A DNA stretch of 64,000 bases. Origin: an uncultured Chlorobiota bacterium. Its GTDB lineage: Bacteria > Bacteroidota > Bacteroidia > Bacteroidales > JAADGE01. The stretch spans positions 19,897 to 83,896 of the forward strand of contig CAMZKL010000005.1 of the NCBI GenBank assembly GCA_947311255.1, read 5' to 3'. The translations under genes were made by a program, and so were the position numbers. The notes below the pieces were generated by a model, which did no database searches, was not told where the DNA came from, and saw nothing but the letters and a program-made list of their open reading frames with translations. Below are positions 17,167-31,772 of this stretch, piece by piece. Position 1 is the stretch's first letter. Each line of letters opens with the position of its first letter.

Positions 17167-17196
17167 AACTGCACAAATTTAAACAATTTATATTCT

Positions 17197-17234: not shown

Positions 17235-17255
17235 ATAGTTATATTTTTTGCTTTT

Positions 17256-17263
17256 TACTTTTG
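17256..17263 (+). promoter_or_regulatory. candidate -7 box (TACTTTTG) for the GLPGLI gene
   Basis: TAnnTTTG match 22 bp upstream of ATG 17286. Confidence 0.4.
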
Positions 17264-17285
17264 TCTCGATTTTATTAATTAAAAA

Positions 17286-18077: not shown

Positions 18078-18185
18078 ATAGAAAAGGGATAATACGGATT
18101 TAACAGACTTTCTCTGATAAAATCTGTGATTATTTAATCTATCTGCTTGTGCTTAATTACTTTTTTCTATTATAAAACTAAAAAT

Positions 18186-20855
18186 ATGAAAGTTAAATAT
18201 CTTTTTACATTATTGCTTATTTCTCTTTTTGCAGAAACAATACTTTCTCAAACAGTTGTAAAAGGTATTGTAAAAGATAAAAGCAACAAATATATTGAAG
18301 TTAATATTATTGCTTTTGATACTGTAACAAATACAATTGGGGCTTATTCAACTGCAAATAATTTTGGTTATTATGAACTTTATTTAAAGCAAAATAAACA
18401 TTATGAATTGCGTGTAAGTTACCTTGGATATGAAACAGTTAATATTCCAATATTCACTGGAAATAAAAAAATTATTACGAAAAATATTGTTCTTGTTTCA
18501 AAAGAATACTCAATAGAAAAAGTTGAAATAACATACACTCAACCAATAAAAATAAATGGCGATACAATAACTTATGATGCAAATTCATTTTCAACAGGCA
18601 ATGAAAAAAGGCTTGAAGATGTTTTGGGAAATTTACCTGGAGTGGAAGTTTCAAAATCAGGAGAAATTACAGTTAAGGGCAAGAAGGTTAGTAAGATAAT
18701 GGTTGATAATAAAGATTTTTTTAGTGGAGATACTAAACTTGCAACACAAAATATTCCTGCAAATGTTGTAGATAAAATTCAGGTTTTAAATAATTACAGC
18801 GAAGTTGGTATGATGAAAGGTGTAAATGCCATCAATAATAATCCTGTTATAAACATAAAGTTAAAACAAGGGAAAAAGCGTTTTTGGTTTGGAAATATTG
18901 AGGTAGGTGCAGGATATGAGAATAAATATCTGTTAAACCCCAAGTTGTTTTATTACAGTCCAAAAACTTCAATAAATTTTATAGGAAACATAAATAATAC
19001 AGGGAAGCAGTCATTTAATTTTCAGGATTATATACGATTTTCAGGAGGCATTACAAATTTACTTAACGGAAGTAACGGATCTTTTTCATTTAATTCTGAG
19101 GAACTTGGTTTTATGTTGTTGCCGAATAATAGGGCAATGAAAATAAATCCTAAATTCTCGGCTTTAAATATAAACCATATTTTTAGTAAGAGGTTGTTAA
19201 TAAGCAGTTTTGCTATTTTCAATATTGATAATTTTGAAATGAAAAAAAATACTAAAAAAGATTATTTTTTAAATTTAAATTCAGAAAATACGAATTCATT
19301 ATCAAAAATTATCAGTCAATTTGCTTTGTACAATTTCAGAATTAATTATCAGCCTAATTATAAGATTTATTTAGATTATAATTTATATGGAAAATATAAT
19401 GATAGTGAGTTCTTAAATAATATTTATTCTAGTGTTTCAGGGGAAACTGAGACAAGAAAAAATAGTAATATAAATGATTTGAAACAGAATTTTAATTTAT
19501 TTTATTCTGTTGGGAATAAAGGTATTTTGTCAATTAGTTTAAAACATAAGTTTTTTGATAATAATCTAAGCAATTTTTATAATTCAAGAAATAAGGTTTT
19601 TAATTTTCATGAATTTGATGAGATAAACAAACTACATTTTTCTCAAATTAAAGATATTTCGGGAAATGAGTTTAGAGGAAAAACAGAGTTTATATATTTG
19701 TTAAACAAGCAAAATAATATAAGAGTAAATATTGGTAGTGATTATGTGCATAACATATTATTACTTAATACAAAGCAATTTACAAGTGGAAATGAAGTTT
19801 TATTATCAGAAAAGTCTAATTTTTCAAATGAGTTAAATAAAAAGTTGCGTTATTATTATTCAAGTTTAAAATACAAGGCATTAAAAGGCAATCTAACAGC
19901 ATCGGGAGGTATAAAATTACATTATTTTATTTCGGAAAACCAACAAAAAGGAGGCATTTATTTAGATAAGCAAACAAAAATAACACCCGACATTTTCTTG
20001 AAATACAATTTTATGAAAACTAAAAATATTAGTTTCTCTTATAATGCTTCGCCCAATTTTATGGAAATTACAAAATTATCAGAAGCATATGTTTTCGCAT
20101 CATACAACAGCCTTAATTTTGGAAATGCGAATTTAAAATCGAGTTTGTATCATAAGTTCTCGTTAAATTATATGTTTTTTAATAATTTTTCGTTTTCAAA
20201 TACTCATTGGTTTATAAATTATTTAAGACAGATAAATCCTACTGCTATTTCAACTAAGTTAAGTGAAAATTTATTTATCTCAAAATATGAACAATTTAGC
20301 AAAGCAAAAGAAACACTTTCAAGTAATTTTAATTATGAAAAACGTATAAAAAAGTTTAAAGTTTCATTTAAAAATATTCTTACATATTCAACTTATGAAA
20401 ATAAAATTAATGATGAGTTTGCAAGAAATAAACTGTTTTCTCACAAATATAAATTAGGTGTTTCAACTTTTTTTAAAAATGTAGCTAATTTTGAAATTGG
20501 GAGTAATCAAAATTTTACAAATTTCAAACAAAATAATGTAAAAAGTGATTTTATAAATTCAGATTATTTTGCAAATATTGAAATTCCTTTTTTAAAGCAA
20601 TTTATTTTTACTGCGGACTACACATATAACACGAATCGAAAAATACAAAACAAAAGTAAAAAATTTTACTCTTTTTTAAATGCTGATTTATATTACAAGG
20701 CAAAAAATAAAAGTTGGGGGTTTTCAATTTCAGGCGAGAATATTCTCAATACAAAATTGCTTACCAAAATAAACAATAATGACATATTCTATTATAAATC
20801 AGACTATTATACTCAAGGGATTTCTGTATTGTTTTCTATTGTGTATAGAATTTAG
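18186..20855 (+). CDS. outer-membrane beta-barrel protein with carboxypeptidase-regulatory-like and plug-like N-terminal domains (TonB-dependent-receptor-like)
   Basis: The ATG at 18186 gives the signal peptide MKVKYLFTLLLISLFAETILSQ (the track start 18147 is TTG). Also a CarboxypepD_reg-like VVKGIVKDK...YELRVSYLGYETV, a plug-like LGNLPGVEVSKSGEITVKGK, and a long Y/F/N-rich barrel. Confidence 0.8.
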   Translation: MKVKYLFTLLLISLFAETILSQTVVKGIVKDKSNKYIEVNIIAFDTVTNTIGAYSTANNFGYYELYLKQNKHYELRVSYLGYETVNIPIFTGNKKIITKNIVLVSKEYSIEKVEITYTQPIKINGDTITYDANSFSTGNEKRLEDVLGNLPGVEVSKSGEITVKGKKVSKIMVDNKDFFSGDTKLATQNIPANVVDKIQVLNNYSEVGMMKGVNAINNNPVINIKLKQGKKRFWFGNIEVGAGYENKYLLNPKLFYYSPKTSINFIGNINNTGKQSFNFQDYIRFSGGITNLLNGSNGSFSFNSEELGFMLLPNNRAMKINPKFSALNINHIFSKRLLISSFAIFNIDNFEMKKNTKKDYFLNLNSENTNSLSKIISQFALYNFRINYQPNYKIYLDYNLYGKYNDSEFLNNIYSSVSGETETRKNSNINDLKQNFNLFYSVGNKGILSISLKHKFFDNNLSNFYNSRNKVFNFHEFDEINKLHFSQIKDISGNEFRGKTEFIYLLNKQNNIRVNIGSDYVHNILLLNTKQFTSGNEVLLSEKSNFSNELNKKLRYYYSSLKYKALKGNLTASGGIKLHYFISENQQKGGIYLDKQTKITPDIFLKYNFMKTKNISFSYNASPNFMEITKLSEAYVFASYNSLNFGNANLKSSLYHKFSLNYMFFNNFSFSNTHWFINYLRQINPTAISTKLSENLFISKYEQFSKAKETLSSNFNYEKRIKKFKVSFKNILTYSTYENKINDEFARNKLFSHKYKLGVSTFFKNVANFEIGSNQNFTNFKQNNVKSDFINSDYFANIEIPFLKQFIFTADYTYNTNRKIQNKSKKFYSFLNADLYYKAKNKSWGFSISGENILNTKLLTKINNNDIFYYKSDYYTQGISVLFSIVYRI

Positions 20856-21238
20856 TTAATCAAAGATTCTACTTCAATACCAAATTCAGATATTACATCA
20901 AGGACATCGTGGATATGATTATCTGATTTATCTCTAAAATTCCATTTTATTTTGACATTTGCACCCTTTCTTTTGTATGACCTTAAAACATCAAGTATTT
21001 CATACAAGACTCTGCTTGTTCCGGTGTTCATATTATCAATATCGGAAAAAAACAATAAATCACCTTTATTCAATATTGAATATTCTTTTAACCATTTGAT
21101 AACAGGTTTAAAAAAATCATCAGGGTTTTGCATATAAGAATTGCCAGAGATAATACAAGTTCCAGTTTCCGCGTTAAGCTCAACAAAAGGGAATGTATCG
21201 TTACCTATTTTAGGTTTAGTTATTATAAGGTTGTTCAT
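20852..21238 (-). CDS. DUF1987 / SiaC-like protein (second copy)
   Basis: From ATG 21238 (the track start 21268 is TTG): MNNLIITKPKIG..FVELNAETGTCIISGNSYMQNPDDFFKPVIKWLKEY...NMNTGTSR...VKIKWNF, collinear with the 8556-8936 protein. Confidence 0.65.
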   Translation of the reverse strand: MNNLIITKPKIGNDTFPFVELNAETGTCIISGNSYMQNPDDFFKPVIKWLKEYSILNKGDLLFFSDIDNMNTGTSRVLYEILDVLRSYKRKGANVKIKWNFRDKSDNHIHDVLDVISEFGIEVESLIN

Positions 21239-21490
21239 TAAATATGCTATTATTAAATTTAATTGCAAAAATATTTATAAAAATAAAAGAGATTGTTCCT
21301 TTCATAATTAAAAAAGATATTCGTATAACTAATGATATATTTATAAAGAATGGTTGCACAAAAAAACATATTCAATCTTCCTTTTTTACTGGAACTTAAG
21401 AATATTTTTAAATTTAAAAGAAGAATTACTTTTAGTATGTGTACTAGTCTGAGTTCAATATAAGTTTTAGAGACTTTTTAAAAACAAAAA

Positions 21491-24400
21491 TTAAAATGCG
21501 GTTACAATAATTTCTGCAATTCTATTTCTTGCTCGTCCATCTTCTGAATCGTCAGTTGTTTTAGGAAACAAATTACTCAAACCTTTTGTTTTAATTCTAT
21601 GTTCTCTAATACCTCTTTTTATTAGATATGCAGCTACTACTGTTGCTCTTGCCTCAGACAAGCCAGTTGGGTTAAGAATTAGAGCTTCAACATTGTCTGC
21701 GTGTCCTAAAACTTCAATATGTACGGAAGGGTTCAAATATAAAAGGTTTACAATATTATCTAATTCTGCTTTGGCAAGAGGAGATAAAGTTGCACTTTCA
21801 GATTTAAAATTAAGATTATCAGTTTTAATTTCTTCTTCTAAAAATATTTTATTCAATAAAATATCATGATTAAGATTTTCAAATGTTGTAACTTGTTGGA
21901 TGTTTAAATCTGCTTTATATGTCCAATATCCTTTTGCAGTTGTTTTTATATAGTAATTGTCTCCTGCAAAAAACGATGTAAAATAAACACCTGTTCTTTT
22001 ACTTGAAGCTGTTTCAGAAATTAGTTCGTTTGTTTTAGAATTATAAATTGAAACAATTGCATGTAAAGGCATTAAAGAATTTGCATCTTTTGTAATTCCT
22101 CTTAGGTTTGTTTGTTTAATTATTTTAATGTCATCAAATGAAAAGTCATCATCTGCAACATCATCATCGTCAATAAGAAATTCGCTTTCATCAAATGAAA
22201 TTTTCCTTTCTTTTTCATCAAAGTCAAAGCTAACTTCAAAGTTTTTGTAACCGTTAAATTTAACAATATAATATGCTTGTCTTATTGAGAAGTGTTCGTG
22301 AAATATGTTGTTAATCTTTACTTTATAATAATCTGAAACTGGAACAAAAAGCTCAAAATAACCATCTTTATCGGTTAGAGCAGAATATGTTCTATCATTT
22401 CCTTCTACAATAATTTTTATATTATTTATAGGGATATCTCCTAGTGCTGAATTTTTATTTCTATTTAGATGTACCCTTCCAAAAAGTTTATTTCTTTCCA
22501 TAAAAGGAATGTGTAGAACGGTATCTTTAGAGGCTGTAAATTTATATGTTGTGCTTTCACTTTCGTATGTATTATCGAATGAAATCTGAGGTGTATAATT
22601 AATAAGATAGTTCCCCTCAACTATGTTATTGTATTCTACATGTCCTTCTTGATTTGATAATAATTCATTTGGAAGAAATTCTCCATTGTAGTTTGGGTCT
22701 TTATTGTCTTCAATTGGGTTTGCTCTTTGAATGTCAGTAAGAACAGAAGTTACACCGGGTTCATTTGGGTCATGTATTCTGTTTCCGTTGTAGTCTTTAT
22801 AATAAAGAATTTTTAAATCATGGTATTTTAATCTTGGTTGAGAAATATTGAAAGATTTTCTTATTCCTGCTTCAAAATAAGTAGAGGTATAAGATCCTGA
22901 CCCGGAACTATTAGACACTCTTTGTACCGATGATGTGTTTGTAAATCTAAATGACCAACCTTTGCCAATATTCCATTTTATCCCGGTATTAATATTAATC
23001 CTACTATTTTTTGATGATAGATTATTTATATATGAACCTCTCAGAATTAGCCTTACTTTATCGTCTATTAAATCTCTTTCATAATACGGAATAATACTTA
23101 AAGATTTTGAGTCTATATGACTATAAAAATGCGAAAATTGCTGAGAAAGATTATAAGGTCCAATATTATATTTTAAATAAACTCCAAAGTTTTTTTGCAT
23201 AAAACTAGCACCAAACTCAGAAACATTGAATGTTTCTGCTGCTGTTCTTCCTTCGTATGAAATACTATTTAAAACCAAAGAATAATTGTAAACGTTAGTA
23301 AATCCATACTTAGCATATAAAGAGAATGAGTTATCTGAGAATTTGTTATAAACTCTAACCCCAAGATATGCTTTTCCGGAAAATGTAGCAAAATATCCTT
23401 CATCTGGATTTGTTGAATAAGTGTTTGTTGTTTGCTGTTCAAAAATTGGAGCTAAATAGATGCTTATATTTTTTTTAACCCAATATATCATTTGAGGTCT
23501 TAATTGTTGGTAACTAGTGAACTTGTCGTCATGCATTACACTATCTGAAATATATGTAGGTTGGTATTTTTGATTGTAATATTGAATTCTAAAATGTTTA
23601 TTTTCAGAAATTGGTAGGCTTACGTTTGCTTCTGTGTATTGACGTCCTCTTGAATATCCCCAGTAGTTTGAAGTTCCAAAATGACTTCTAAGACTGAATT
23701 TCAGGGATTTTATATTGCCGGCAAAATTTAATCTATATCCCCACCCAGAAGATTTACTTTTTATTAATTGATTGTTTGTGCTTTGACTACTTCCAATAAG
23801 AAGCATTAAATTTTGTTTTAAAATCCTAGTTTTAATTAAACCATACTCTAAATTTGCAGTTGTTTTATATGCCGGTAATTGAGAATAAACTCCTCCTAGT
23901 TCAAAAGTAAAAAGACTTGGGAAACTATGAGAGTAGGAAAGTCCGTAATTGTCTGATTTTTGAAGTAATCTTCGGGTAGCTACTCCTTTAATTTTAATAT
24001 TTTCCCCAATAGATTGAGATATAAATACTCCTCTTCCATACATACTATGTTCAAAGTTTCCTGTATAATCACCAAGAAATATATTTGTTTTTGGTGTATG
24101 AAAATCAATCTTCATTCTACTATTAATCCAAAGATTATTTGTAGAAGGGTCTTGATTATAGTTTTCAAATGAATATACAATATTTTTTTTTCTCTTAAAA
24201 AGAATATTCCCGAAGATTTTTCCAATATATATAGGAGTACTGTTTCCAAAAATATTATATGCAGAAAACTCAATATTTAAAGGATAATTAAGCTCGGAGA
24301 AAATGTTTTTATATTTCCAGTCTAAATATTTAAACCAAACTGTTTTTGAGATTACTGAGTCATGAAGACTAACTTCAAGATTTACTTTGTGTACCCGATA

Positions 24401-25063
24401 TTTCTTATAATCTATATCTTTATTAAGTTGAACTTCATATTTGAAAGTTTTATTTTCCCCGGTTTTAACAAGTCTTTGTTCTACAAGAATATTATCAGTA
24501 CCATTTAAAATCTTGATACTTTTATCGGGTGTGATTTTTATATTAGTAATTTCATCAATATTCCCTTTGTTTTCAACTTTCAATGAGAATGTTGATTTTA
24601 GAGTGTTGTGGTTAAAATATCTTGATTTTTTATTAGTCTTAACATTTATTACTGATTTAACCGGTATTTTGACAAAACAATATTCAGAATCATAAATTGA
24701 TTTATTATTGTCAGTAAGAACAGCAACTATTGCGTATCCAACTCCACCATTTGCATTTTTGGAAACACTAACTCTTACAGGAAATGACAAACTCCCATTT
24801 GGTGGGAGAGATATTTGTTCATATGAAGACCCAATTATTAACCAGTCTTTTGGAGTGTTTAATTTAATATTAAAACTAATCTCATGATTAGATTTATTAC
24901 TTAACAATAAGATATTAAAAATAGACTCTCCCGATTCAATTTCAATTTTATCTTTTAAAAATCTCATATCAATATCACCTCCGTTATTAACTGTTTGAGC
25001 AGAAACAGAATTTAATAACAAAAGAAATATTGGAATCAATAAAAATCTGACTTTTGGTGTCAT
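21491..25063 (-). CDS. 1190-aa OmpA-family outer-membrane protein (N-terminal Ig-like domains, central beta-barrel, C-terminal beta-sandwich domains, OmpA peptidoglycan-binding domain)
   Basis: Signal peptide. Two Ig-like segments (ISLPPNGSLSFPVRVSV; LVKTGENKTFKYEVQL). About 500 aa of alternating aromatic/polar barrel-like sequence ending in ..YFEAGIRKSF. CarboxypepD_reg-like segments (LTDKDGYFELFVP). OmpA-like C-terminus (HIEVLGHADN...LSEARATVVAAYL...NRIAEIIV). Confidence 0.85.
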   Translation of the reverse strand: MTPKVRFLLIPIFLLLLNSVSAQTVNNGGDIDMRFLKDKIEIESGESIFNILLLSNKSNHEISFNIKLNTPKDWLIIGSSYEQISLPPNGSLSFPVRVSVSKNANGGVGYAIVAVLTDNNKSIYDSEYCFVKIPVKSVINVKTNKKSRYFNHNTLKSTFSLKVENKGNIDEITNIKITPDKSIKILNGTDNILVEQRLVKTGENKTFKYEVQLNKDIDYKKYRVHKVNLEVSLHDSVISKTVWFKYLDWKYKNIFSELNYPLNIEFSAYNIFGNSTPIYIGKIFGNILFKRKKNIVYSFENYNQDPSTNNLWINSRMKIDFHTPKTNIFLGDYTGNFEHSMYGRGVFISQSIGENIKIKGVATRRLLQKSDNYGLSYSHSFPSLFTFELGGVYSQLPAYKTTANLEYGLIKTRILKQNLMLLIGSSQSTNNQLIKSKSSGWGYRLNFAGNIKSLKFSLRSHFGTSNYWGYSRGRQYTEANVSLPISENKHFRIQYYNQKYQPTYISDSVMHDDKFTSYQQLRPQMIYWVKKNISIYLAPIFEQQTTNTYSTNPDEGYFATFSGKAYLGVRVYNKFSDNSFSLYAKYGFTNVYNYSLVLNSISYEGRTAAETFNVSEFGASFMQKNFGVYLKYNIGPYNLSQQFSHFYSHIDSKSLSIIPYYERDLIDDKVRLILRGSYINNLSSKNSRININTGIKWNIGKGWSFRFTNTSSVQRVSNSSGSGSYTSTYFEAGIRKSFNISQPRLKYHDLKILYYKDYNGNRIHDPNEPGVTSVLTDIQRANPIEDNKDPNYNGEFLPNELLSNQEGHVEYNNIVEGNYLINYTPQISFDNTYESESTTYKFTASKDTVLHIPFMERNKLFGRVHLNRNKNSALGDIPINNIKIIVEGNDRTYSALTDKDGYFELFVPVSDYYKVKINNIFHEHFSIRQAYYIVKFNGYKNFEVSFDFDEKERKISFDESEFLIDDDDVADDDFSFDDIKIIKQTNLRGITKDANSLMPLHAIVSIYNSKTNELISETASSKRTGVYFTSFFAGDNYYIKTTAKGYWTYKADLNIQQVTTFENLNHDILLNKIFLEEEIKTDNLNFKSESATLSPLAKAELDNIVNLLYLNPSVHIEVLGHADNVEALILNPTGLSEARATVVAAYLIKRGIREHRIKTKGLSNLFPKTTDDSEDGRARNRIAEIIVTAF

Positions 25064-25103
25064 TAATTGAGATTAGGGATATTGAAAAGAAAAGTTCTTG
25101 AAA

Positions 25104-25625
25104 CTATTCTGGTTCTAAAGTATATAAAATTTCAGCATAATAATAATCTGGGGTTTTTCCAATTAACGAATTATTAGCAACATAAACACTTTTTCCGCAA
25201 TGATATGAAATAAACAAATTAGTTAAAACACCCGGAACAGTTGTTTGTTGCCCATCCTCAACCAAGTTAGTTGGAACGGGAGATAAAACAGCATGAGAAA
25301 CATCATTAAAGTATGTTGCTGCTGCATCGTCTCCTGTTATGGAAAATTCTATAGTATTAAGCGGCAAGCTATTTCCAGCATCACCCTGAATTACAGGAGT
25401 AGTAGCTTCCACACTCAATTTCCACTCCCGTAGGGGGTTTCCTAAGTCTTCAAAAAAAACAGTCAAATGCGTCCAATTATTATATGAAACACCATTATTA
25501 TAATGGTCTAATAATTGAAAATTAAAATTAATATTACTGCCCGACTGTATTGTTAATCTTGAAGTAACTTGTCCAGATAAGCTTAATGTACCACAAACCA
25601 GAAATAAAAATATTATATACTTCAT
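25104..25625 (-). CDS. small secreted beta-strand protein, paralogue of 25678-26271 (candidate fibre subunit)
   Basis: ATG at 25625 (the track start is TTG). Signal peptide. Shares LDHYNNGV / THLTV / SLPLNTIEFSIT / PDYYYAEILYTL blocks with its neighbour. Confidence 0.65.
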   Translation of the reverse strand: MKYIIFLFLVCGTLSLSGQVTSRLTIQSGSNINFNFQLLDHYNNGVSYNNWTHLTVFFEDLGNPLREWKLSVEATTPVIQGDAGNSLPLNTIEFSITGDDAAATYFNDVSHAVLSPVPTNLVEDGQQTTVPGVLTNLFISYHCGKSVYVANNSLIGKTPDYYYAEILYTLEPE

Positions 25626-25677
25626 CAAGAACAATAAATCACTATAAAATAAAACAAATTTTATAATTTAAAAATTG

Positions 25678-26271
25678 TTAATGCTGACTTAGTTCAAGAA
25701 TAACATTTACAACGTATCTATCAGATGTAATACTTTGTGCTAACAATGATGAACCATTCATACTACCTTCTCCTGTCCCAAGTCTCCATTCAAGAGTGAA
25801 AAGATTTTGATTAATGTCCCCTGCACCTGCTCCCAAATAATTACCAGCAATAATTGTAGCTGCTGCATTTGTAAGTGGTTGAACTCCTGCAAGTAAATCC
25901 CAGTTTGTACCATCAGCTCCTGTGCCTTGTTCAGTTACTTCATAACCTAAATTATTTAAAGGAATATTATGCGTAGCATCATCAACTCCAAAGAAATCTG
26001 TTGCATCTGCCATTAAAGTTACATCAAAATCAACGGATGAAGCTACAGTAAAATGTGTTTGATAAAGTGCATTTGGTTGTCCAACACCGTTTGTATATTG
26101 ATCAATAGTGTTAATAACATACTCAAGATTTCCTCCTCCGGTTACATTTAATCTTAAAATTGAATTTAAAGTAATCCCCACAGGAATAATTCCTTGATCA
26201 GAAACCGGCTGTGAAAACATAGTTCCTATTGAAAGGATAATTGCTAAAATTGAAATTGTAAATTTTTTCAT
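25678..26271 (-). CDS. small secreted beta-strand protein (candidate major fibre subunit)
   Basis: Signal peptide MKKFTISILAIILSIGTMFSQ. Gly/Thr/Asn-rich 197-aa protein with no Cys lipobox. Blocks IDQYTNGV / THFTV / NIPLNNLGYEVT / SDRYVVNVILEL. Confidence 0.7.
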   Translation of the reverse strand: MKKFTISILAIILSIGTMFSQPVSDQGIIPVGITLNSILRLNVTGGGNLEYVINTIDQYTNGVGQPNALYQTHFTVASSVDFDVTLMADATDFFGVDDATHNIPLNNLGYEVTEQGTGADGTNWDLLAGVQPLTNAAATIIAGNYLGAGAGDINQNLFTLEWRLGTGEGSMNGSSLLAQSITSDRYVVNVILELSQH

Positions 26272-26340
26272 TATATTTGAATTTAAATGGTTAAAAAATT
26301 AAAGTTTTAATATGTAAAAGTACTAGTTTATTTTGAAATA

Positions 26341-28248
26341 TCAAATATTATTTGGAAATAGTTTAAACCCAATTAAGATTATATCGTCAGTTTGGTCAAC
26401 ATTTCCTTGCCATTTTTGTAAAAAAAGTTTTAAAATATCTCTTTGATTTTCCATAGGTTTTTTATGAATTTCAAATAATAGATTCCTAAAAAACTTAGAC
26501 ATTAGTTTTCTTCCAGTTTCCTCTCCTGTTTGGTCAGCAAATCCATCTGAGAATATATATACCGTGATAGGCTCATCTATTTCTATAGAATAGTTTGTAA
26601 ATCTTTTTGTTTCAGTTTTATCAAAAATAACCCCTCCAATAGGTTTAATATCTCCTTTTATTCTTTCTAATTTATTGTCTTTAATATATATTAGAGGGTT
26701 CTTAGCTCCCGCAAATTCCAATATGTTGTTTTTTTTGTCATAACAACACATAGACATATCCATTCCATCTCTATTGTCAGATGTGTCTTGTCTTAATGAT
26801 TTTCTTACCCCTTCATGTAATTCATCTAGAATTTTTGCAGGTTCATAAATTTTCTTTTGTTCAATTATATTTTCAAGCAAATTATAACTCATAATTGATA
26901 AAAATGCACCTGGTACTCCATGCCCTGTACAATCAATTGTTGAAACAAAAGTTTTTTCAATTGGTTCATCTTCTCCATTTTCAATTACAATGTTTTTAAA
27001 CCAATAAAAATCACCACTAACTTTATCTCTTGGTTTAAAAAAGACAAATGAATTGTCTATGTATTTATTTAAATTCCTTTGTGGAGGAAGTAATGCTCTT
27101 TGGATATTAACAGCATAATTAATACTTGAATTTATATCATAATTTTGACTTTCAATTTTCATGAAAGCACTGGTAAGTTCTTCATTCTTTATTTCAATTT
27201 TTTTATTTTGTTCTGCAATTTTTTGGTTAGTTATTGATAACATCTTATTATGTTGTTTTCTTCTTTTTATGTTAAAAAGCAATACAAGAGCAATTAATAG
27301 ACCAAAAGCTACTATACTAGAAAATATTATCAATGTTAATCTTTGTTGGGCTTTATCTCTGTTAAGTTCAGCCTTTACTAATTCGTTTTTCATTTTTTCT
27401 TGCTCAACAATAGCTTCAACACGTGCAATTGAATCGTTTTTAGCTTTAATCATAGCTCGTTGAATTTCAATAGCTCTGTTTAGAGTATCTTCAATAAACT
27501 CTTTATTTTTTTTCATTAATTCATATTCGAGCTGTTTTGTTTTTGCTTCTGCATCTTTAATGCTGAGTTCTGCAATTGATTTAATTCTTTCTTCTGTTAC
27601 CAACTCTTTTGTTTTTGTGTCCTTAAAGTGTTGTCTATATGAAGCAAACTTATCAAGATATTCGGCTGCTTTTTGTTCATTGCCAATTTTTTGGTAATTT
27701 TCAGCAAGCATTCTATAGCTTATAAGAAGTAGTTTTGGATTTTGAATTTCATTTGCAATATCAAGAGCTCTAATTGTATTTTTTATTGCATTTTTATAAT
27801 CTTCCTTAATTGCTAAAACATATGCATAATCTAATAGCCCTGATGAAATTTGAGATTTATCTCCTAAATTTTTTCTTATTTTTAAACTTTTTTGAAAATA
27901 TAATAACGCTTTGTCATTTTGATCTAAATTTGCATGCAACAACCCTAAATTACTGTATATTTTCATTACATTTTGAAAATCTTTAATTTGCCCATAAATT
28001 TTATATGATTCTTTAAAATAAGGTATTGCTTTTTTGTTTTCTCCTTTATTTAAACAAAATCTACCAGCTTTGTAATATTGATTTGCAGCTTTTTTATTTT
28101 CATCGTTTTTTTGATATTCTTTGGCAGAAACCAAATATTTATTTAGTTTTTCTTTGTCTTTATCTGAAAATTGAGAAAAAGAATGAAAATTAAAAGAAAG
28201 TAATAAAATTACTATCAAAAAAACAGTATAATTTATATTTAATTTCAT
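26341..28248 (-). CDS. TPR-sensor, single-TM, PP2C/SpoIIE-family protein phosphatase
   Basis: Signal/anchor, about 6 TPRs, a TM segment (LTLIIFSSIVAFGLLIALVLLF), a coiled coil, then SGDFYWF, DCTGHGVPGAFLS, SDGFADQ and DDIILIGFKL PPM/SpoIIE motifs. Confidence 0.85.
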   Translation of the reverse strand: MKLNINYTVFLIVILLLSFNFHSFSQFSDKDKEKLNKYLVSAKEYQKNDENKKAANQYYKAGRFCLNKGENKKAIPYFKESYKIYGQIKDFQNVMKIYSNLGLLHANLDQNDKALLYFQKSLKIRKNLGDKSQISSGLLDYAYVLAIKEDYKNAIKNTIRALDIANEIQNPKLLLISYRMLAENYQKIGNEQKAAEYLDKFASYRQHFKDTKTKELVTEERIKSIAELSIKDAEAKTKQLEYELMKKNKEFIEDTLNRAIEIQRAMIKAKNDSIARVEAIVEQEKMKNELVKAELNRDKAQQRLTLIIFSSIVAFGLLIALVLLFNIKRRKQHNKMLSITNQKIAEQNKKIEIKNEELTSAFMKIESQNYDINSSINYAVNIQRALLPPQRNLNKYIDNSFVFFKPRDKVSGDFYWFKNIVIENGEDEPIEKTFVSTIDCTGHGVPGAFLSIMSYNLLENIIEQKKIYEPAKILDELHEGVRKSLRQDTSDNRDGMDMSMCCYDKKNNILEFAGAKNPLIYIKDNKLERIKGDIKPIGGVIFDKTETKRFTNYSIEIDEPITVYIFSDGFADQTGEETGRKLMSKFFRNLLFEIHKKPMENQRDILKLFLQKWQGNVDQTDDIILIGFKLFPNNI

Positions 28249-28290
28249 TTTTGAGTTGAATTAAAACTATAAATATTTAATTCTAAACGA

Positions 28291-28388
28291 TGCCGTTTTC
28301 TCAATTATAATAGGGAAAATTTAGTGTTTCTTTGGTGTCGTTTTAATATTTATATATGGTTTTTTTAGTTTATTTAATTGGGAAAATT
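28291..28388. promoter_or_regulatory. paired direct repeats in the divergent control region of the fibre locus
   Basis: TG(C/T)CGTTTT at 28291 and 28336. Exact GGGAAAATT at 28313 and 28380. Confidence 0.35.
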
Positions 28389-28400
28389 AATATATTTTTT

Positions 28401-28408
28401 TAAATTTG
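28401..28408 (+). promoter_or_regulatory. candidate -7 box (TAAATTTG) for the chaperone-like gene
   Basis: TAnnTTTG match 40 bp upstream of ATG 28449. Confidence 0.4.
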
Positions 28409-28448
28409 AAAATTTTAATGAAAAGAAAATTAATAAAACCCAAAAAAA

Positions 28449-29282
28449 ATGCTTAAATACATTGGCTTATTTATACTGATTTTTTTTAATATAAATAAAA
28501 ACATATACTCTCAAGACTTTGAAGTTTCTCCTGTTATAATGGAATTTTCCGTTGATGAGGGAGAGTCTCAAACAAAATTATTGTCTGTTAAAAACCACTC
28601 TAATTTTAAAACATCTTTTACTGTAACTTTTGCAGATTTCACAGTTGATGTGAACGGCAATAAACAGCTTATGAAAAAAAATTCTTCTAAAAATTCATGT
28701 GCAGACTGGATAACAATTGAAAAAACTTTTTTTGAGATAAATCCAAATGAACAAATTAATCTTAAAGTTACATTAGAATCTCCTGCAGAAGACAACACTT
28801 CAAGATGGGCAATAATGTATATTCAAACAGTAAAAGAACAAGTTAGTTTTGATGTGGACAAATCGGCTATTGGCGCAGGTATTAATTTAAGTGGAAGAAT
28901 TGCCGTTCATGTTTTCAGAAAACCAGTTTCAGATGCAAAATCTGACTTAACAATTAAGTATTTGAAAGAAAGTAAGAGTACAGACTCAATCGGTCGTGTT
29001 TTTTCAGCTGTAATTGAAAACAAAGGACAACTTATAGAAAAATGTAAAGTTACTTTTATTGCATCCGACATGACTACCGCTGAGGAAATAAGGTTTGATC
29101 CTATTTATTTAGAATCATACCCAAATTGCAAAAGAAATGTTAAGTTTACTTTGCCTAAAACAATGATGCCCGGAAAATATGAATTAGTTGCCCTTTTAGA
29201 TTATGGCAAAGCTACCACAATTAAAGGAGTTAGATTGAAAGAAACTCTCTTAATTCTTGATAAGAAAAAAGAAAAAGAATAA
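28449..29282 (+). CDS. secreted two-domain Ig-like protein, PapD-like periplasmic chaperone candidate
   Basis: Signal peptide. FEVSPVIMEFSVDEGESQTKLLSVKNHS opening strand pair. GRIAVHVFRKP resembles the sRIKLfYRP end-of-domain-1 signature of pilus chaperones. A second beta domain follows (SAVIENKGQLIEKCKVTF). Confidence 0.55.
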   Translation: MLKYIGLFILIFFNINKNIYSQDFEVSPVIMEFSVDEGESQTKLLSVKNHSNFKTSFTVTFADFTVDVNGNKQLMKKNSSKNSCADWITIEKTFFEINPNEQINLKVTLESPAEDNTSRWAIMYIQTVKEQVSFDVDKSAIGAGINLSGRIAVHVFRKPVSDAKSDLTIKYLKESKSTDSIGRVFSAVIENKGQLIEKCKVTFIASDMTTAEEIRFDPIYLESYPNCKRNVKFTLPKTMMPGKYELVALLDYGKATTIKGVRLKETLLILDKKKEKE

Positions 29283-29307
29283 TATAAAAACACTATAGTT
29301 TTATACT

Positions 29308-30411
29308 ATGAATAAGCATATTGTCTTCCTTACTTTTTATATATTCTTTTTGCCAATTTTAACTTATGCCCAAAAAAGTTTTGTGAGTTATTACTCTGAC
29401 ACAAATAATCGTGTAAAAGAAAAATATTTTGCTGAAATTAAAGCTAATGACACAATAAAAAATGGAAAATATACATTCTTTTCTAAAAATGGGACAAAAT
29501 TACAAGAAGGAACTTTCTTAAATAATAGTTTAGAAGGAAATTGGATTTTATATTATAATACGGGAGAAGTAAAATCCAAAATTCATTTTCTTGAAAACAA
29601 TAAAAATGGTAATTTTTATCACTATTATAAAACTGGAGAGTTAAAACAAGAGGGCAGGTATAAAAACAATTTACCCGAAGGAAAAGTTACAACTTATTAT
29701 TTGAATGGAAAAATTAAAATTATAGGGCACTACAAAAATGGAAAATTAAACGGAACAGTTGAAAAATTTAAAGAAGACGGATTAAAAGAAGAATTAATTA
29801 CATATAAAGATAATAGAATTGAAGGTTATTTTGAAACCTATTATGATACAGGAGAATTAAACTATAAAGGAAAAAAAAAGGAAGATTTATATTTTGATAC
29901 TCTATATGTTTATTATAAAAATAACAACTTGCAAAGGAAATGTTTTTATGAAAACGGCAAACTAAATAGCAAGTTTTATGCGTTTTATAAAAACAAAACT
30001 TTAAGCGGACTTTATCATTATAAAAATGGGCTAATCAGTGGTGAATATAAAGTTTATCATGCAAATGGAATAATTGCCGAAGAAGGTCAGTATATTGAAG
30101 ATAAGAGAATTGGACATTGGAAATCATATTACCCTAATAAAAAGATATTTTCTGAAGGAAATTACCTGAATGGGAAATTTGAAGGCCTTTGGAAAGTTTA
30201 TTTCCCAAATGGGAACTTAAAACAAACTGGCAAATTCCAGAATGGATTAGCAGTAGGGAAATGGGAATTTTACTATGAAAATGGTCAAATTTCCTCAAGA
30301 GGAAATTATAAAGAAGATTTTAAAACAGGAATTTGGGTTTTTTATAACGAAAAAGGAAAAAAATCAATGATTAAAAAATATCTTCTTGGTAAAATAATAA
30401 ATATAGAATAA
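29308..30411 (+). CDS. secreted MORN-repeat-variant (YwqK-like) protein
   Basis: Signal peptide plus about 13 tandem ~23-aa repeats (G.w..YY.nGk.k.eG.y.ng...G). Confidence 0.8.
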   Translation: MNKHIVFLTFYIFFLPILTYAQKSFVSYYSDTNNRVKEKYFAEIKANDTIKNGKYTFFSKNGTKLQEGTFLNNSLEGNWILYYNTGEVKSKIHFLENNKNGNFYHYYKTGELKQEGRYKNNLPEGKVTTYYLNGKIKIIGHYKNGKLNGTVEKFKEDGLKEELITYKDNRIEGYFETYYDTGELNYKGKKKEDLYFDTLYVYYKNNNLQRKCFYENGKLNSKFYAFYKNKTLSGLYHYKNGLISGEYKVYHANGIIAEEGQYIEDKRIGHWKSYYPNKKIFSEGNYLNGKFEGLWKVYFPNGNLKQTGKFQNGLAVGKWEFYYENGQISSRGNYKEDFKTGIWVFYNEKGKKSMIKKYLLGKIINIE

Positions 30412-30599
30412 AAAGATTAACTTTTAATATCTGAAACACTAATAACAAAAAATTTGACGCACAAGGGCATAACTATTATTCAGCACAATGATTGCTTACA
30501 TACAAAAGCAAGTGTTTCTATGTGCAAAGCAAAACAATTATTGTAAATATATATTTAATCAACTTATTGAACAATAATTAATTAGACAAATATAGACAT

Positions 30600-31772
30600 A
30601 TGAAAGATTTTATTTCAAATAATTTTTATATAGAAAAAGAAACAAATGTTTCTCAAATTGATTTAGCATATAAAATGACTGAATCAGTAGATAAAGAATA
30701 CGTTGAATATGTCTATAGAGGCAATTTTTCTGAAAAAATAACAGAAAGTATATTAGGACTAACAGATGCAAAGTTTGTCAATGATAAAGATGTTTCGGGA
30801 AGCAGGAAGAAGATATCTTCTATTTTAATTGAAGCACTTCAAAATGTAATAAGACATCAAGATAAATCTGAGGATGAAGATGTTGACAACAAAAGCCTTT
30901 TTGTTATACAAAAAACAAAAGACTCTATATTTATTAGTACCGGAAATGTAATTGAAAATAAAAATATATTAGAACTTGAACAATACTTGTCAGAAATAAA
31001 GAGTCATAATAATGAAAGTTTAAAGAAAGCATACCAGAAAAAAATGACAGATGGTATTATTTCTGAAAAAGGTGGAGGAGGTCTTGGTATAATTGGAATG
31101 GCAAGAAGAACAAAAGGTAGGGTTGATTATTATTTTAAAAAAATAAATGATTCATATTCTTATTTTTATTTTCAAATAAGATTAGTTTTTTCTGACACTT
31201 TCAAAGAAGTAATAAATGACAAATTGTTTAATTTAAAAAGAATATCAAAATTTCATGATTTACTAAATGAAGAAAATATTCTTCTTAATTTTAACGGTTC
31301 TTTTGCTTTTGAAAATCTCACACACCTTTTGCCAATAATTGAATCTCATTCGATTGGAGGTGATAAAATAAAAAAGAAAGTATTTGATTTCACAGTAAAA
31401 GCCCTAAGGAATATTATTGATTTCGCAGATAAATTTGAAGATGAAAAAGGGAATACTCCCAAAAAGCGAAATAGTAGAGGAGTGTTTTTATTAAATAAAA
31501 AAGGGAAAAAACTATATTTAACTGCTGGAAATCTTATTTTAAATGATAAAGCAATAATATTAGGTAGTAAAATAAGAATTATTAACAAAACAAATCCTGA
31601 TGGGTTAATAAAAATACGAGATTATATTGAGCAATTTTATGCATTTGATGTTTCTAAAAAACCTGATTTAAATTTAATAGATATGAAGTTGAAAAATGAT
31701 AATAATATCTATTACCTTTTTAAAAACATAAATCCTAAAACTTCTTATTTTATTCTGCAGTTAGTAATATAA
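30600..31772 (+). CDS. SiaB-like HATPase serine/threonine kinase fused to a degenerate second copy (kinase-pseudokinase tandem)
   Basis: The N-half has ILIEALQNVIRH (N-box) and GGGGLGIIGMARRT (G-box), as in RsbW/SpoIIAB/SiaB kinases. The C-half aligns with it (FNGSFAFENL..., VKALRNII, LYLTAGNLI) but lacks the G-box. Confidence 0.7.
   Translation: MKDFISNNFYIEKETNVSQIDLAYKMTESVDKEYVEYVYRGNFSEKITESILGLTDAKFVNDKDVSGSRKKISSILIEALQNVIRHQDKSEDEDVDNKSLFVIQKTKDSIFISTGNVIENKNILELEQYLSEIKSHNNESLKKAYQKKMTDGIISEKGGGGLGIIGMARRTKGRVDYYFKKINDSYSYFYFQIRLVFSDTFKEVINDKLFNLKRISKFHDLLNEENILLNFNGSFAFENLTHLLPIIESHSIGGDKIKKKVFDFTVKALRNIIDFADKFEDEKGNTPKKRNSRGVFLLNKKGKKLYLTAGNLILNDKAIILGSKIRIINKTNPDGLIKIRDYIEQFYAFDVSKKPDLNLIDMKLKNDNNIYYLFKNINPKTSYFILQLVI

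What the first reader, a model, noticed from the sequence alone, without database searches (positions are those of the whole stretch)
20852..31772. Candidate non-canonical chaperone/usher-like surface-fibre locus wired to a Sia-type partner switch
Nine adjacent genes form two divergent units around one control region (28249-28448).

- Minus strand: TPR-TM-PP2C phosphatase, two paralogous small secreted beta proteins, a 1190-aa OM protein (Ig-like/barrel/Ig-like/OmpA), then a DUF1987 (SiaC-like) gene.
- Plus strand: a secreted two-domain PapD-like protein, a secreted MORN-repeat protein, then a SiaB-like HATPase kinase.

The structural set (chaperone-like, subunit-like x2, barrel with periplasmic beta-sandwich domains at both ends) mirrors chaperone-usher logic. 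No protein looks like a classical usher. The known Bacteroidota pili (type V FimA/Mfa lipoprotein pilins) have different features, and these subunits have no lipobox.

The regulatory set mirrors Pseudomonas SiaA/SiaB/SiaC, whose output is the diguanylate cyclase SiaD and which has been linked to cupA fimbriae. Here no GGDEF protein is present, so the output of the switch is unknown. I cannot name a characterised system with this combination.
Basis: partly seen in the sequence, partly recalled or inferred. Interest (0 to 1): 0.85.

Follow-up and report, generated by a model that had tools for sequence, protein, structure and literature searches.

The report
Gene cluster for TLP-1-type fibres
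This locus is a distant relative of the previously unidentified operon that encodes the subunit of the orphan "TLP-1" pond-water fibrils, and it pairs two pilin-like subunits with a PapD/WxLIP-like chaperone, a giant outer-membrane protein and, in this lineage, a Sia-type phospho-switch.

Summary

- **Chaperone-like protein.** The 277-aa protein models confidently as two beta-sandwich domains. Its best structural matches are Enterococcus WxLIP, then chaperone-usher chaperones.
- **Subunits.** The 197-aa protein family is homologous to the protomer of TLP-1a/b (PDB 9IKJ/9IKK). These are cryo-EM fibrils from pond water, built by donor-strand exchange, whose genes and producer were unknown.
- **TLP-1 operon.** A marine homologue matches TLP-1b at E 1.3e-45 over the whole mature protein. 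It lies in a self-contained four-gene operon: chaperone-like, major subunit, minor subunit, large outer-membrane protein. All four families are the ones in this window.
- **Window clade.** In 26 Bacteroidota loci with full flanks, the MORN gene is present in 26, the outer-membrane gene in 22 and the subunit genes in 21. SiaA-, SiaC- and SiaB-like genes are present in 16, 11 and 7.
- **Minor subunit.** It consistently lacks 12-13 N-terminal residues of the putative donor strand.
- **Classical chaperone-usher families.** No sequence membership was found with FimC, FimD or FimA.

The barrel and export role of the outer-membrane protein, and the output of the switch, remain inferred.

The parts
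25678..26271 (-). Major fibre subunit (197 aa, Sec signal peptide). Member of the TLP-1 protomer family. The mature N-terminus QPVSDQGIIPVGITLNSILRLNV is the putative donor strand.
   Evidence: phmmer against the PDB gives 9IKK as top hit (E 0.3). The orthologue in L051 gives 9IKK at 5.3e-4 and 9IKJ at 2.8e-3 as the top two of the PDB. A TLP-1b fragment hits only this family among 3296 ORFs. hhalign of A2 against the TLP-1 clade A4 gives probability 97.1%, E 4.7e-11. The N-terminal 28 mature residues are the most conserved part. AF2 pLDDT is below 50 for residues 39-68.
25104..25634 (-). Minor subunit paralogue (176 aa, signal peptide). Its mature N-terminus is 12-13 residues shorter. Candidate tip/cap or initiator subunit.
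   Evidence: Paralogous to the 197-aa protein. Present between the major subunit and the OM protein in 21 of 26 full loci and in all testable TLP-1-clade loci. The N-terminal truncation is systematic in both clades.
21491..25063 (-). 1190-aa outer-membrane protein. Signal peptide, N-terminal Ig-like domain(s), a central region of about 500 aa rich in aromatic residues and Gly (putative beta-barrel, 241-740, ending YFEAGIRKSF), prealbumin-like domains, and a C-terminal OmpA peptidoglycan-binding domain. Candidate export/assembly platform and anchor.
   Evidence: Pfam and NCBIfam hits. Among orthologues, CarboxypepD_reg is found in 26 of 26, SdrD_B in 24, OmpA in 19 and SPOR in 4. Composition profile. 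The part conserved across both clades is HMM positions 7-963; the peptidoglycan-binding tail is variable. It is the only OM protein of the core operon.
28449..29282 (+). Periplasmic two-domain Ig-like chaperone-like protein (277 aa, signal peptide, no C-terminal TM helix).
   Evidence: AF2 pLDDT 86.6, all-beta, two domains. Foldseek gives WxLIP 9i25_C at E 1.2e-10, then CfaA, CsuC, Caf1M and FimC at 1e-8 to 1e-6. The A1 profile against the PDB gives EfmWxLIP1 as top hit, E 0.01. The homologue directly upstream of the TLP-1-like subunit gene matches at BLASTP 1e-26. No TM segment.
29308..30411 (+). Secreted MORN_2-repeat protein (367 aa). Clade-specific accessory partner of the chaperone-like gene.
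   Evidence: PF07661, E 3e-34. Adjacent to the chaperone-like gene in 76 of 81 loci and 26 of 26 full loci of the window's clade. Absent from the TLP-1-clade operon.
26341..28248 (-). SiaA-like sensor phosphatase. N-terminal anchor, periplasmic TPR domain, TM helix 306-324, cytoplasmic PP2C/SpoIIE domain. First gene of the subunit operon.
   Evidence: SpoIIE 9.8e-15, TPR_12 3.5e-16. NF038263 6.8e-55, below the equivalog cut-off. TM segments. The gap to the major-subunit gene is 69 bp. Present in 16 of 26 full loci.
30600..31772 (+). SiaB-family kinase made of two tandem DUF6272 domains (390 aa).
   Evidence: NF038262, 168.6 bits, above the cut-off of 85. The halves score 8.9e-32 and 1.3e-14 against DUF6272. 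Present in 7 of 26 full loci.
20852..21268 (-). SiaC-family (DUF1987) phosphoprotein. The likely true start is the ATG at 21238 (128 aa). The phospho-acceptor Thr is conserved.
   Evidence: PF09345, 80.7 bits. phmmer against P. aeruginosa SiaC (6K4F/6KKO) gives E 1.7e-6, with N67-T68 aligned to N71-T72. The gene is absent from the 94%-identical contig L002.
28249..28448 (.). Divergent AT-rich intergenic region between the two units.
   Evidence: Sequence. TAAATTTG (TAnnTTTG type) at 28401, 41 nt before the ATG of the chaperone-like gene. This motif occurs about 2.6 times per kb in the window, so it is weak evidence.

Best explanation
The locus encodes a TLP-1-type surface fibre and its dedicated assembly proteins. 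It follows chaperone-usher logic but uses non-homologous parts.

Proposed pathway:
1. The major (197 aa) and minor (176 aa) subunits are exported by Sec.
2. In the periplasm their incomplete Ig-like fold is capped by the soluble two-domain chaperone-like protein (277 aa).
3. The subunits are delivered to the 1190-aa outer-membrane protein. This protein is anchored to peptidoglycan through its OmpA domain and acts as the export and polymerisation platform.
4. Subunits polymerise by donor-strand exchange, using the conserved N-terminal strand of the major subunit.
5. The minor subunit lacks most of that strand, so it can accept a strand but probably cannot donate one properly. It would then sit at one end of the fibre as a tip or initiator.

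The MORN-repeat protein is a periplasmic accessory factor found only in this clade.

In this lineage a Sia-like partner switch governs production. A TPR-sensor PP2C phosphatase is co-transcribed with the subunits. A tandem SiaB-like kinase and a SiaC-like phosphoprotein with the conserved Thr complete the switch. It acts through an effector that is not a diguanylate cyclase and is not encoded in the locus.

Shown here: the homologies, the fold of the chaperone-like protein, the synteny, and donor-strand exchange in the solved homologue. Inferred: the chaperone function, the barrel and export role of the OM protein, the position of the minor subunit, and the regulatory link.
For: Subunit identity:
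- A2 against the TLP-1 clade A4: hhalign probability 97.1%, E 4.7e-11 over 188 columns.
- The TLP-1-clade subunit L088 against 9IKK: E 1.3e-45 over mature residues 25-260 of the query and 2-236 of the chain.
- TLP-1b fragments retrieve one protein, P0171, from 5.8 billion (E 1.1e-10). It shares an identical 13-mer, VTVTMDLQPVLQL, and the mature N-terminus is in register.
- TLP-1 fibres assemble by insertion of the N-terminal beta1 strand of protomer n+4 into protomer n (PMC11494351).

Chaperone-like protein:
- AF2 model and Foldseek matches to WxLIP and chaperone-usher chaperones.
- The family profile gives EfmWxLIP1 as top PDB hit.
- Weak WxLIP_PGBD Pfam hits in both clades.
- A conserved but low-confidence hairpin tip at residues 132-145.

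Synteny:
- Window clade: 26 of 26 MORN, 22 of 26 OM protein, 21 of 26 for each subunit.
- TLP-1 clade: chaperone-like, major, minor, OM protein in that order in every locus with enough flank. Flanks are housekeeping genes.
- Gaps within the operons are 25-69 bp.

Minor subunit: N-terminal truncation in both clades.

Sia module. The SiaA-like gene heads the subunit operon in 16 of 26 loci. In P. aeruginosa SiaABCD controls CupA-fimbria-dependent aggregation (PMC7647112).
Against: - No chaperone-subunit complex could be modelled, so donor-strand complementation by the 277-aa protein is untested.
- The AF2 model of the 197-aa protein is mediocre (pLDDT 72.7). Its Foldseek top 50 does not contain 9IKK or 9IKJ. 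It gives only weak matches to chaperone-usher pilins (EcpA 3.8e-5, TM about 0.4).
- The central region of the OM protein has no detectable family. hhalign against FimD gives probability 1.4%. Its barrel nature rests on composition alone.
- In TLP-1 the donor is protomer n+4, which by my own inference means four parallel donor-strand-linked chains. That is hard to reconcile with a single usher-like pore.
- Five of the 26 full loci lack a subunit gene or the OM gene within 10 kb; three have neither, one has only a weak partial OM-protein hit, and one has only Sia genes alongside.
- The SiaC gene is missing in the nearest relative. SiaB and SiaC are separated from the operons by 188 bp and 222 bp.
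- No effector for the switch was found among conserved neighbours.
Confidence: 0.7

Rival explanations
1. The proteins form a non-filamentous cell-surface complex like the Gram-positive WxL/Csc clusters. The two small proteins would be displayed on the cell surface, held by the WxLIP-like protein, and would serve adhesion or substrate binding rather than forming a polymer.
For: - The best structural and sequence match of the 277-aa protein is WxLIP.
- The canonical WxL cluster is one WxLIP plus two WxL proteins (PMC10599100). That is the same 1+2 count as here.
- UniRef names the Salinivirga homologue a 'WxL domain-containing protein'.
Against: - Pfam WxL does not hit any of 32 family members at E up to 1.
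- The W of the W-x-L-like motif is not conserved in the TLP-1 clade.
- The 277-aa protein lacks the C-terminal TM helix of WxLIP.
- The solved homologues are helical polymers.
- The N-terminal strand that mediates polymerisation is the best-conserved part of the family.
Confidence: 0.1
2. A TLP-1-type fibre is made, but the 1190-aa protein is only an OM-peptidoglycan anchor or base, not the export pore. The 277-aa protein would be a structural adaptor rather than a chaperone. Subunits would cross the outer membrane by another route or self-assemble without a chaperone, as TasA or archaeal cannulae do.
For: - No usher homology.
- The OmpA or SPOR tail and the Ig-like domains are typical of tethering proteins.
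- The n+4 donor geometry does not fit extrusion of a single chain.
- Chaperone-free donor-strand polymers exist (PMC12518558, listed).
Against: - The four-gene operon is self-contained and flanked by housekeeping genes. It holds no other membrane component.
- The subunits have no T9SS C-terminal domain, although the genome uses T9SS.
- The peptidoglycan-binding tail is dispensable in the TLP-1 clade, whereas the central region of about 500 aa is conserved.
Confidence: 0.15
3. The Sia-like genes are neighbours with an unrelated cellular output. They do not control the fibre genes.
For: - SiaB and SiaC are present in only 7 and 11 of 26 full loci.
- The module is absent from the TLP-1 clade apart from SiaA-like ORFs upstream in one locus, L129.
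- The SiaC gene is an indel relative to the nearest relative.
- A second membrane PP2C lies 2.5 kb away.
- No effector was found.
Against: - The SiaA-like gene is the first gene of the subunit operon, 69 bp upstream of the major subunit. It keeps that position in 16 of 26 loci across several families.
- Its sensor domain is periplasmic, where the subunits fold.
- Sia controls fimbria-dependent aggregation in Pseudomonas.
Confidence: 0.15

Closest known systems
TLP-1a / TLP-1b fibrils (PDB 9IKJ, 9IKK; CryoSeek, Wang et al. PNAS 2024, PMC11494351)
   Same: The major-subunit family is homologous. The bridge is hhalign probability 97.1% from the window's family to the clade that matches 9IKK at E 1.3e-45. 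Both have Sec signal cleavage before a Gln, and the N-terminal strand is conserved and in register with TLP-1 beta1.
   Different: The window's subunit is about 60 residues shorter and only about 25% identical to the TLP-1 clade. TLP-1 was described as an orphan structure, with no gene, organism, chaperone or operon known. The window's clade adds MORN and Sia-like genes and a divergent two-operon layout.
Chaperone-usher pili (Fim/Pap, archaic Csu/CupE, alternative CFA/I and Ecp)
   Same: The gene logic is the same: a periplasmic two-domain Ig-like protein, major and minor subunits, and one large OM protein. Polymerisation is by N-terminal donor-strand exchange. The chaperone-like fold matches CfaA, CsuC, Caf1M and FimC (Foldseek 1e-8 to 1e-6). 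The subunit model weakly matches EcpA, DraE and CfaB.
   Different: There is no sequence-family membership. Pfam gives no PapD, Usher or fimbrial hits. hhalign against FimC, FimD and FimA gives probabilities of 0.2, 1.4 and 0.6%. The OM protein has a different architecture (Ig-like, central region, prealbumin-like domains, OmpA or SPOR). The donor is protomer n+4, not n+1.
WxL-WxLIP clusters of Firmicutes (Csc clusters; EfmWxLIP1, PDB 9I1Y/9I25; PMC10599100)
   Same: This is the closest structural and sequence relative of the 277-aa protein. The stoichiometry is one WxLIP-like gene plus two small paralogous secreted proteins. A beta-hairpin of WxLIP is predicted to insert into WxL.
   Different: WxLIP is membrane-anchored by a C-terminal helix and occurs in monoderms. 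Here the protein is soluble and periplasmic, in a diderm, with an OM partner. The small proteins do not match the Pfam WxL domain. WxL proteins are not known to polymerise.
Pam pili of CPR bacteria (bioRxiv 10.64898/2026.03.03.709456)
   Same: This is another recently found non-canonical system with donor-strand-exchange pilins and PapD-like chaperones encoded in one operon.
   Different: Pam chaperones are anchored in the inner membrane and there is no OM component. Its pilins have two domains. No homology was tested here.
SiaABCD partner switch of Pseudomonas aeruginosa (PMC7647112, PMC8457831)
   Same: The module has a PP2C phosphatase, a SiaB-family kinase and a DUF1987 protein with the N-T phospho-acceptor motif conserved. 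It is linked to a fibre or aggregation phenotype.
   Different: There is no SiaD or GGDEF protein. The sensor is a periplasmic TPR domain. The SiaB-like kinase is a tandem fusion. The genes are scattered at the edges of a structural locus rather than forming one siaABCD operon. SiaA and SiaC score below the equivalog cut-offs.
Type V pili of Bacteroidota (FimA/Mfa)
   Same: Both occur in the same phylum, and both polymerise by a strand-exchange principle.
   Different: Type V pilins are lipoproteins that are cleaved by a protease and donate a C-terminal strand (own knowledge). Here there is no conserved lipobox, the strand is N-terminal, and a dedicated chaperone-like gene is present.

Membership tests
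TLP-1-type fibre gene cluster (defined here) | Major subunit homologous to the TLP-1a/b protomer (9IKJ/9IKK) | tested here: met
   The window protein gives 9IKK as top PDB hit, but at E 0.3. The family bridge is A2 against A4 at probability 97.1%, E 4.7e-11, and the A4 member L088 against 9IKK at E 1.3e-45.
TLP-1-type fibre gene cluster (defined here) | Conserved N-terminal donor strand starting right after signal-peptide cleavage | tested here: met
   Residues 21-48 are the most conserved block. TLP-1b residue 8 aligns to residue 29, so the mature N-termini coincide. Strand exchange by the window protein itself could not be tested.
TLP-1-type fibre gene cluster (defined here) | Synteny of the chaperone-like, major subunit, minor subunit and large OM protein genes | tested here: met
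   All four families lie in the window. The window-clade HMMs hit the TLP-1-clade operon genes at about 1e-46, 1e-11, 1e-7 and 1e-88.
Classical chaperone-usher pathway | PapD-family periplasmic chaperone (PF00345/PF02753) | tested here: not met
   No Pfam hit. hhalign of FimC against A1 gives probability 0.2%. Only fold-level similarity was found (Foldseek 1e-8 to 1e-6, TM 0.4-0.6).
Classical chaperone-usher pathway | Usher-family OM protein (PF00577) | tested here: not met
   No Usher hit in the window protein or in 26 orthologues. hhalign of FimD against A3 gives probability 1.4%. The A3 profile against the PDB: the 60 of 85 matches shown are all OmpA-type domains.
Classical chaperone-usher pathway | Subunits polymerised by donor-strand exchange after chaperone donor-strand complementation | not testable with these tools
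   Exchange is shown by cryo-EM for the homologue TLP-1 (PMC11494351). Complementation by the 277-aa protein would need a complex model or an experiment.
WxL / WxLIP cluster | WxLIP: DUF916 plus DUF3324 Ig-like pair | tested here: inconclusive
   Top Foldseek hit is 9i25_C at 1.2e-10. The family profile's top PDB hit is EfmWxLIP1 at E 0.01. Pfam WxLIP_PGBD scores 17.6 bits, below the cut-off of 27.3.
WxL / WxLIP cluster | C-terminal transmembrane helix on WxLIP | tested here: not met
   No hydrophobic segment. The AF2 model ends in a 4-residue helix.
WxL / WxLIP cluster | Small proteins carry the WxL domain (PF13731) | tested here: not met
   0 of 32 family members hit WxL at E up to 1. The only support is a UniRef name.
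SiaABCD signalling module | SiaB-family kinase | tested here: met
   NF038262 scores 168.6 bits against a cut-off of 85. It is a tandem DUF6272 protein. It scores below the SiaB equivalog cut-off (56.7 against 225).
SiaABCD signalling module | SiaC (DUF1987) with phospho-acceptor Thr68 | tested here: met
   PF09345 scores 80.7 bits against a cut-off of 24.5. The alignment to 6K4F (E 1.7e-6) places N71-T72 on N67-T68 (site from PMC8457831).
SiaABCD signalling module | SiaA-type PP2C phosphatase | tested here: inconclusive
   NF038263 gives E 6.8e-55 but 186.8 bits against a cut-off of 700. Only residues 335-630 match, and the sensor domain differs.
SiaABCD signalling module | SiaD diguanylate cyclase as output | tested here: not met
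   No GG[DE]EF motif in six frames of the 64-kb window. No GGDEF family among the conserved neighbours.
Type V (FimA/Mfa) pili | Lipoprotein pilin precursors with a lipobox Cys | tested here: not met
   The N-termini of 52 major and 38 minor orthologues show type I signal peptides ending ...(S/G/A)Q. No Cys is conserved at the cleavage site.

The most novel reading that the evidence does not exclude
This gene-cluster family is the missing genetic basis and assembly pathway of the orphan TLP-1 fibrils. It would define a new pilus class, found so far in Bacteroidota-type genomes and marine and other metagenomes. Its features would be tubular fibres held together by donor-strand exchange in which protomer n+4 is the donor, built by a WxLIP/PapD-like periplasmic chaperone and a non-usher outer-membrane platform of about 1,000-1,300 aa. 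In some lineages it would be controlled by a Sia-like Ser/Thr partner switch that works without c-di-GMP.
Probability: 0.55. Interest if true: 0.9.

Novelty: new variant of a known kind. Interest (0 to 1): 0.8.

Why it matters
- **Identity of TLP-1.** The fibrils were published as structures with no gene, no organism and no biogenesis pathway; the authors' own metagenomics and mass spectrometry failed to identify them. This work ties them to a four-gene operon and to about 160 loci.
- **Assembly candidates.** It supplies candidate assembly factors: a chaperone-like protein and an OM platform unrelated to ushers.
- **Test organism.** It points to a cultured carrier, Salinivirga cyanobacteriivorans, in which the pathway can be tested.
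- **Reach of chaperone-assisted pili.** It extends chaperone-assisted donor-strand-exchange pili to Bacteroidota, where only type V pili are known. It also links the Gram-positive WxLIP fold to a diderm periplasmic chaperone role.
- **Assembly geometry.** It raises the question of how fibres in which protomer n+4 is the donor are assembled at an outer membrane.
- **Regulation.** The Sia-like module offers a case of a DUF1987 partner switch with an output that is not a diguanylate cyclase.

Tried and rejected
1. **WxL domain.** I tested membership of the small proteins. Pfam gave no hit in any of 32 members, and the family profile found no WxL chain in the PDB. I rejected membership.
2. **Foldseek of the subunit model.** The 197-aa AF2 model gave only weak matches to chaperone-usher pilins, and 9IKK/9IKJ were not in the top 50. 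The model is mediocre, with residues 39-68 disordered, so I relied on sequence evidence instead.
3. **Flavobacteriales orthologue.** I expected L071 to be closer to TLP-1. phmmer against the PDB found no TLP hit.
4. **The name 'TLP-2'.** It first led me to a dipeptide glycofibril paper. The data-availability section of the first CryoSeek paper shows that 9IKK is TLP-1b.
5. **Classical chaperone-usher homology.** hhalign against E. coli FimD, FimC and FimA was negative. Single-sequence queries make this a weak test.
6. **OM protein.** The family profile against the PDB and Pfam found only OmpA, SPOR and prealbumin-like domains and nothing for the central region. The DUF748 hit merely overlaps the OmpA region.
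7. **Output effector for the Sia-like switch.** Among conserved neighbours I found only housekeeping genes (GyrB, HtpG) and one 135-aa ORF without a Pfam hit.
8. **Conserved extra genes in the TLP-1 clade.** Only housekeeping genes were found.
9. **RNA and cyclase checks.** No Rfam RNA in the locus and no GGDEF motif in the window.

Full report
**Observation**

- SiaC-family protein: PF09345, E 8.7e-23.
- 1190-aa protein: signal peptide, N-terminal Ig-like hits (FixG_C, NPCBM_assoc), SdrD_B and CarboxypepD_reg domains, and a C-terminal OmpA domain.
- Two small signal-peptide proteins without any Pfam hit. They are paralogues (BLASTP 1e-5).
- TPR-TM-SpoIIE phosphatase. Its best NCBIfam match is SiaA (6.8e-55, below the cut-off).
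- 277-aa secreted protein with only faint Cep192_D6 and WxLIP_PGBD hits.
- MORN_2 protein.
- SiaB-family kinase above the NCBIfam cut-off. It is a tandem of two DUF6272 domains.

The 200-bp divergent intergenic region is real. There are eight genes, not nine. No GG[DE]EF motif occurs anywhere in the window.

**The chaperone-like protein**

I aligned 30 homologues, all of them unnamed or called only 'hypothetical protein'. The AF2 model built from that alignment has pLDDT 86.6 and two beta-sandwich domains. Its Foldseek neighbours in the PDB are Enterococcus faecium WxLIP (9i25_C, E 1.2e-10), then a long run of chaperone-usher chaperones: CfaA, CsuC, Caf1M, FimC, EcpB and CupB2. The family profile also picks EfmWxLIP1 as the best PDB sequence hit (E 0.01).

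Unlike WxLIP, the protein has no C-terminal membrane helix. A soluble periplasmic location fits a diderm. The tip of a long hairpin (residues 132-145) is conserved yet modelled with low confidence. By my inference, that is what would be expected of a partner-binding element.

**The subunits and the link to TLP-1**

The 197-aa family has 406 representative clusters at E up to 1e-3 among 1.84 billion proteins. Its most conserved part is the first 28 or so residues of the mature protein. AF2 models the stretch just after them (residues 39-68) with pLDDT below 50.

The only PDB sequence that the window protein approaches is 9IKK (E 0.3). The depositors named that molecule 'TLP-2', but the CryoSeek paper shows it is TLP-1b. 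TLP-1a/b are 8-nm tubular fibrils recovered from pond water. The N-terminal beta1 strand of protomer n+4 completes the Ig-like fold of protomer n. The authors could identify neither the gene nor the organism (PMC11494351).

I strengthened the link in steps.
- A 55-residue TLP-1b fragment hits only the 197-aa orthologues among 3296 ORFs from 81 loci.
- The orthologue in L051 gives 9IKK and 9IKJ as the top two hits in the PDB (5.3e-4 and 2.8e-3).
- TLP-1b fragments retrieve a single protein, P0171, from 5.8 billion (E 1.1e-10). It has an identical 13-residue N-terminal stretch, and its signal-peptide cleavage puts the numbering in register.
- The gene immediately upstream of P0171 belongs to the 277-aa family (BLASTP 1e-26).
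- A full-length relative of P0171, L088, matches TLP-1b at E 1.3e-45 over the whole mature chain.
- The window's family and this TLP-1 clade align profile to profile with probability 97.1%, E 4.7e-11.

**Synteny**

A genome scan with the 277-aa family found 80 loci. All are metagenome-assembled genomes, and nearly all are labelled Bacteroidota, including Bacteroidales, Paludibacter, Rikenellaceae, Salinivirgaceae, Draconibacterium and Crocinitomix. Some carry a 'Chlorobi' label. The cultured Salinivirga cyanobacteriivorans also carries the locus.

The table gives family HMM results for the 26 loci with at least 8 kb on both sides.

| Gene family | Loci with the gene (of 26) |
|---|---|
| MORN protein | 26 |
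| Large OM protein | 22 |
| Major subunit (197 aa) | 21 |
| Minor subunit (176 aa) | 21 |
| SiaA-like | 16 |
| SiaC-like | 11 |
| SiaB-like | 7 |

A metagenome scan with P0171 found 80 more loci, many of them from marine samples. Every locus with enough flank has one co-directional operon. Its order is chaperone-like (about 287 aa), major subunit (about 262 aa), minor subunit (about 203 aa), then OM protein (about 1,000-1,300 aa). The flanks are housekeeping genes: RecG, RsmB, Tag, PyrD and PheT.

Four genes are therefore the self-contained core. The MORN gene and the Sia-like genes are lineage-specific additions.

**The OM protein**

The part conserved across both clades covers HMM positions 7-963. 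This includes the N-terminal Ig-like region, a central region of about 500 residues, and two prealbumin-like domains. The OmpA tail can be replaced by SPOR or be absent.

The central region is rich in aromatic residues and glycine and poor in charged residues. It ends in YFEAGIRKSF, which resembles an OMP beta-signal. This is compatible with a large barrel but is not shown. No usher signal was found.

**The minor subunit**

In both clades the mature N-terminus of the minor paralogue is 12-13 residues shorter than that of the major subunit. It lacks the first half of the putative donor strand. By analogy with chaperone-usher tip subunits (own knowledge), it may accept a strand without donating a full one. 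It would then occupy one end of the fibre. This is an inference.

**The switch**

The SiaA-like protein has an N-terminal anchor, a periplasmic TPR domain, a TM helix at 306-324 and a cytoplasmic PP2C domain. Its gene heads the subunit operon, 69 bp upstream of the major-subunit gene.

The SiaC-like protein aligns to P. aeruginosa SiaC (E 1.7e-6) with the N67-T68 phospho-acceptor conserved. In Pseudomonas, SiaA and SiaB set the phosphorylation state of SiaC, which activates the cyclase SiaD. Aggregation there depends on CupA fimbriae. Here there is no cyclase, and no candidate effector is conserved nearby.

The most likely reading is that the periplasmic TPR domain senses an envelope or fibre-assembly signal. 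The switch would then set fibre production through a distal effector. The link rests on operon position and co-occurrence only.

The SiaC-like gene is a clean 633-bp presence/absence difference against a contig that is about 94% identical at the DNA level.

**Comparison and novelty**

The system works like a chaperone-usher pathway but is not a member of it. The PapD, usher and fimbrial-subunit families were all tested and not met. It resembles the Gram-positive WxL/WxLIP clusters in the fold of the chaperone-like protein and in its one-plus-two gene count. It fails the WxL-domain and TM-helix criteria. It differs from type V pili because it has no lipoprotein pilins.

I found no paper that links TLP-1 to genes or to an assembly pathway. 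I therefore rate it a new variant of a known kind: chaperone-assisted donor-strand-exchange fibres, with a non-usher OM component and an unusual n+4 donor geometry.

**Caveats**

- No complex model was possible.
- The OM protein was not modelled.
- The subunit model is mediocre and does not retrieve 9IKK by fold.
- The window's subunit is a distant relative of TLP-1 (about 25% identity), so fibre geometry may differ.
- Five of the 26 full loci lack a subunit gene or the OM gene within 10 kb.

Noticed in passing
window 20855-21487, compared with L002 3036-3041: The SiaC-like gene and its 222-bp spacer form a clean 633-bp presence/absence difference against the roughly 94%-identical MAG contig CAMZKV010000004. 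There the stop of the TonB-receptor-like gene abuts the stop of the OM-protein gene. In more distant relatives the SiaC gene sits convergent to the SiaB gene instead.
   Followed up: partly
window 33962-34246: A second indel of 285 bp relative to the same sister contig, between the 165-aa ORF and the polytopic PP2C gene.
   Followed up: no
window 34270-35772 (-): A second membrane-bound SpoIIE/PP2C phosphatase with about six hydrophobic segments lies 2.5 kb from the SiaB-like gene. It could share the SiaC-like substrate.
   Followed up: no
window 37216-40665 (+): A T9SS cargo protein with trypsin-like peptidase, CARDB, Ig domains and a Por_Secre_tail sorting domain. It shows that the genome uses type IX secretion, whereas the fibre subunits carry no such sorting domain.
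   Followed up: partly
window 15024-20855: An OmpR-type two-component system (15024-17166), a Porph_ging-family protein (17286-18077) and a 902-aa CarboxypepD_reg/OMP_b-brl_3 outer-membrane protein (18147-20855) lie directly upstream. They are not conserved with the locus in other genomes, apart from the near-identical L002.
   Followed up: partly
L054:8831-9238 (+) and 16 other loci: A conserved ORF of about 135 aa with no Pfam hit follows the MORN gene in 17 loci, for example L054. It occupies the position that the SiaB-like gene has in the window's closer relatives.
   Followed up: no
PDB 9IKK; P0142 (Salinivirga, L001:10001-10585): Two naming traps. The 9IKK molecule is deposited as 'TLP-2' but is TLP-1b of the paper; a different dipeptide glycofibril was later named TLP-2. 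UniRef calls the Salinivirga homologue a 'WxL domain-containing protein', although Pfam WxL hits none of the 32 family members.
   Followed up: yes
L088:10865-11473 and other minor subunits of the TLP-1 clade: Minor subunits of the TLP-1 clade carry conserved Cys residues: an N-terminal HCG motif right after the signal peptide and a second Cys about 70 residues on. The major subunits lack them, which suggests a disulfide specific to the minor subunit.
   Followed up: no
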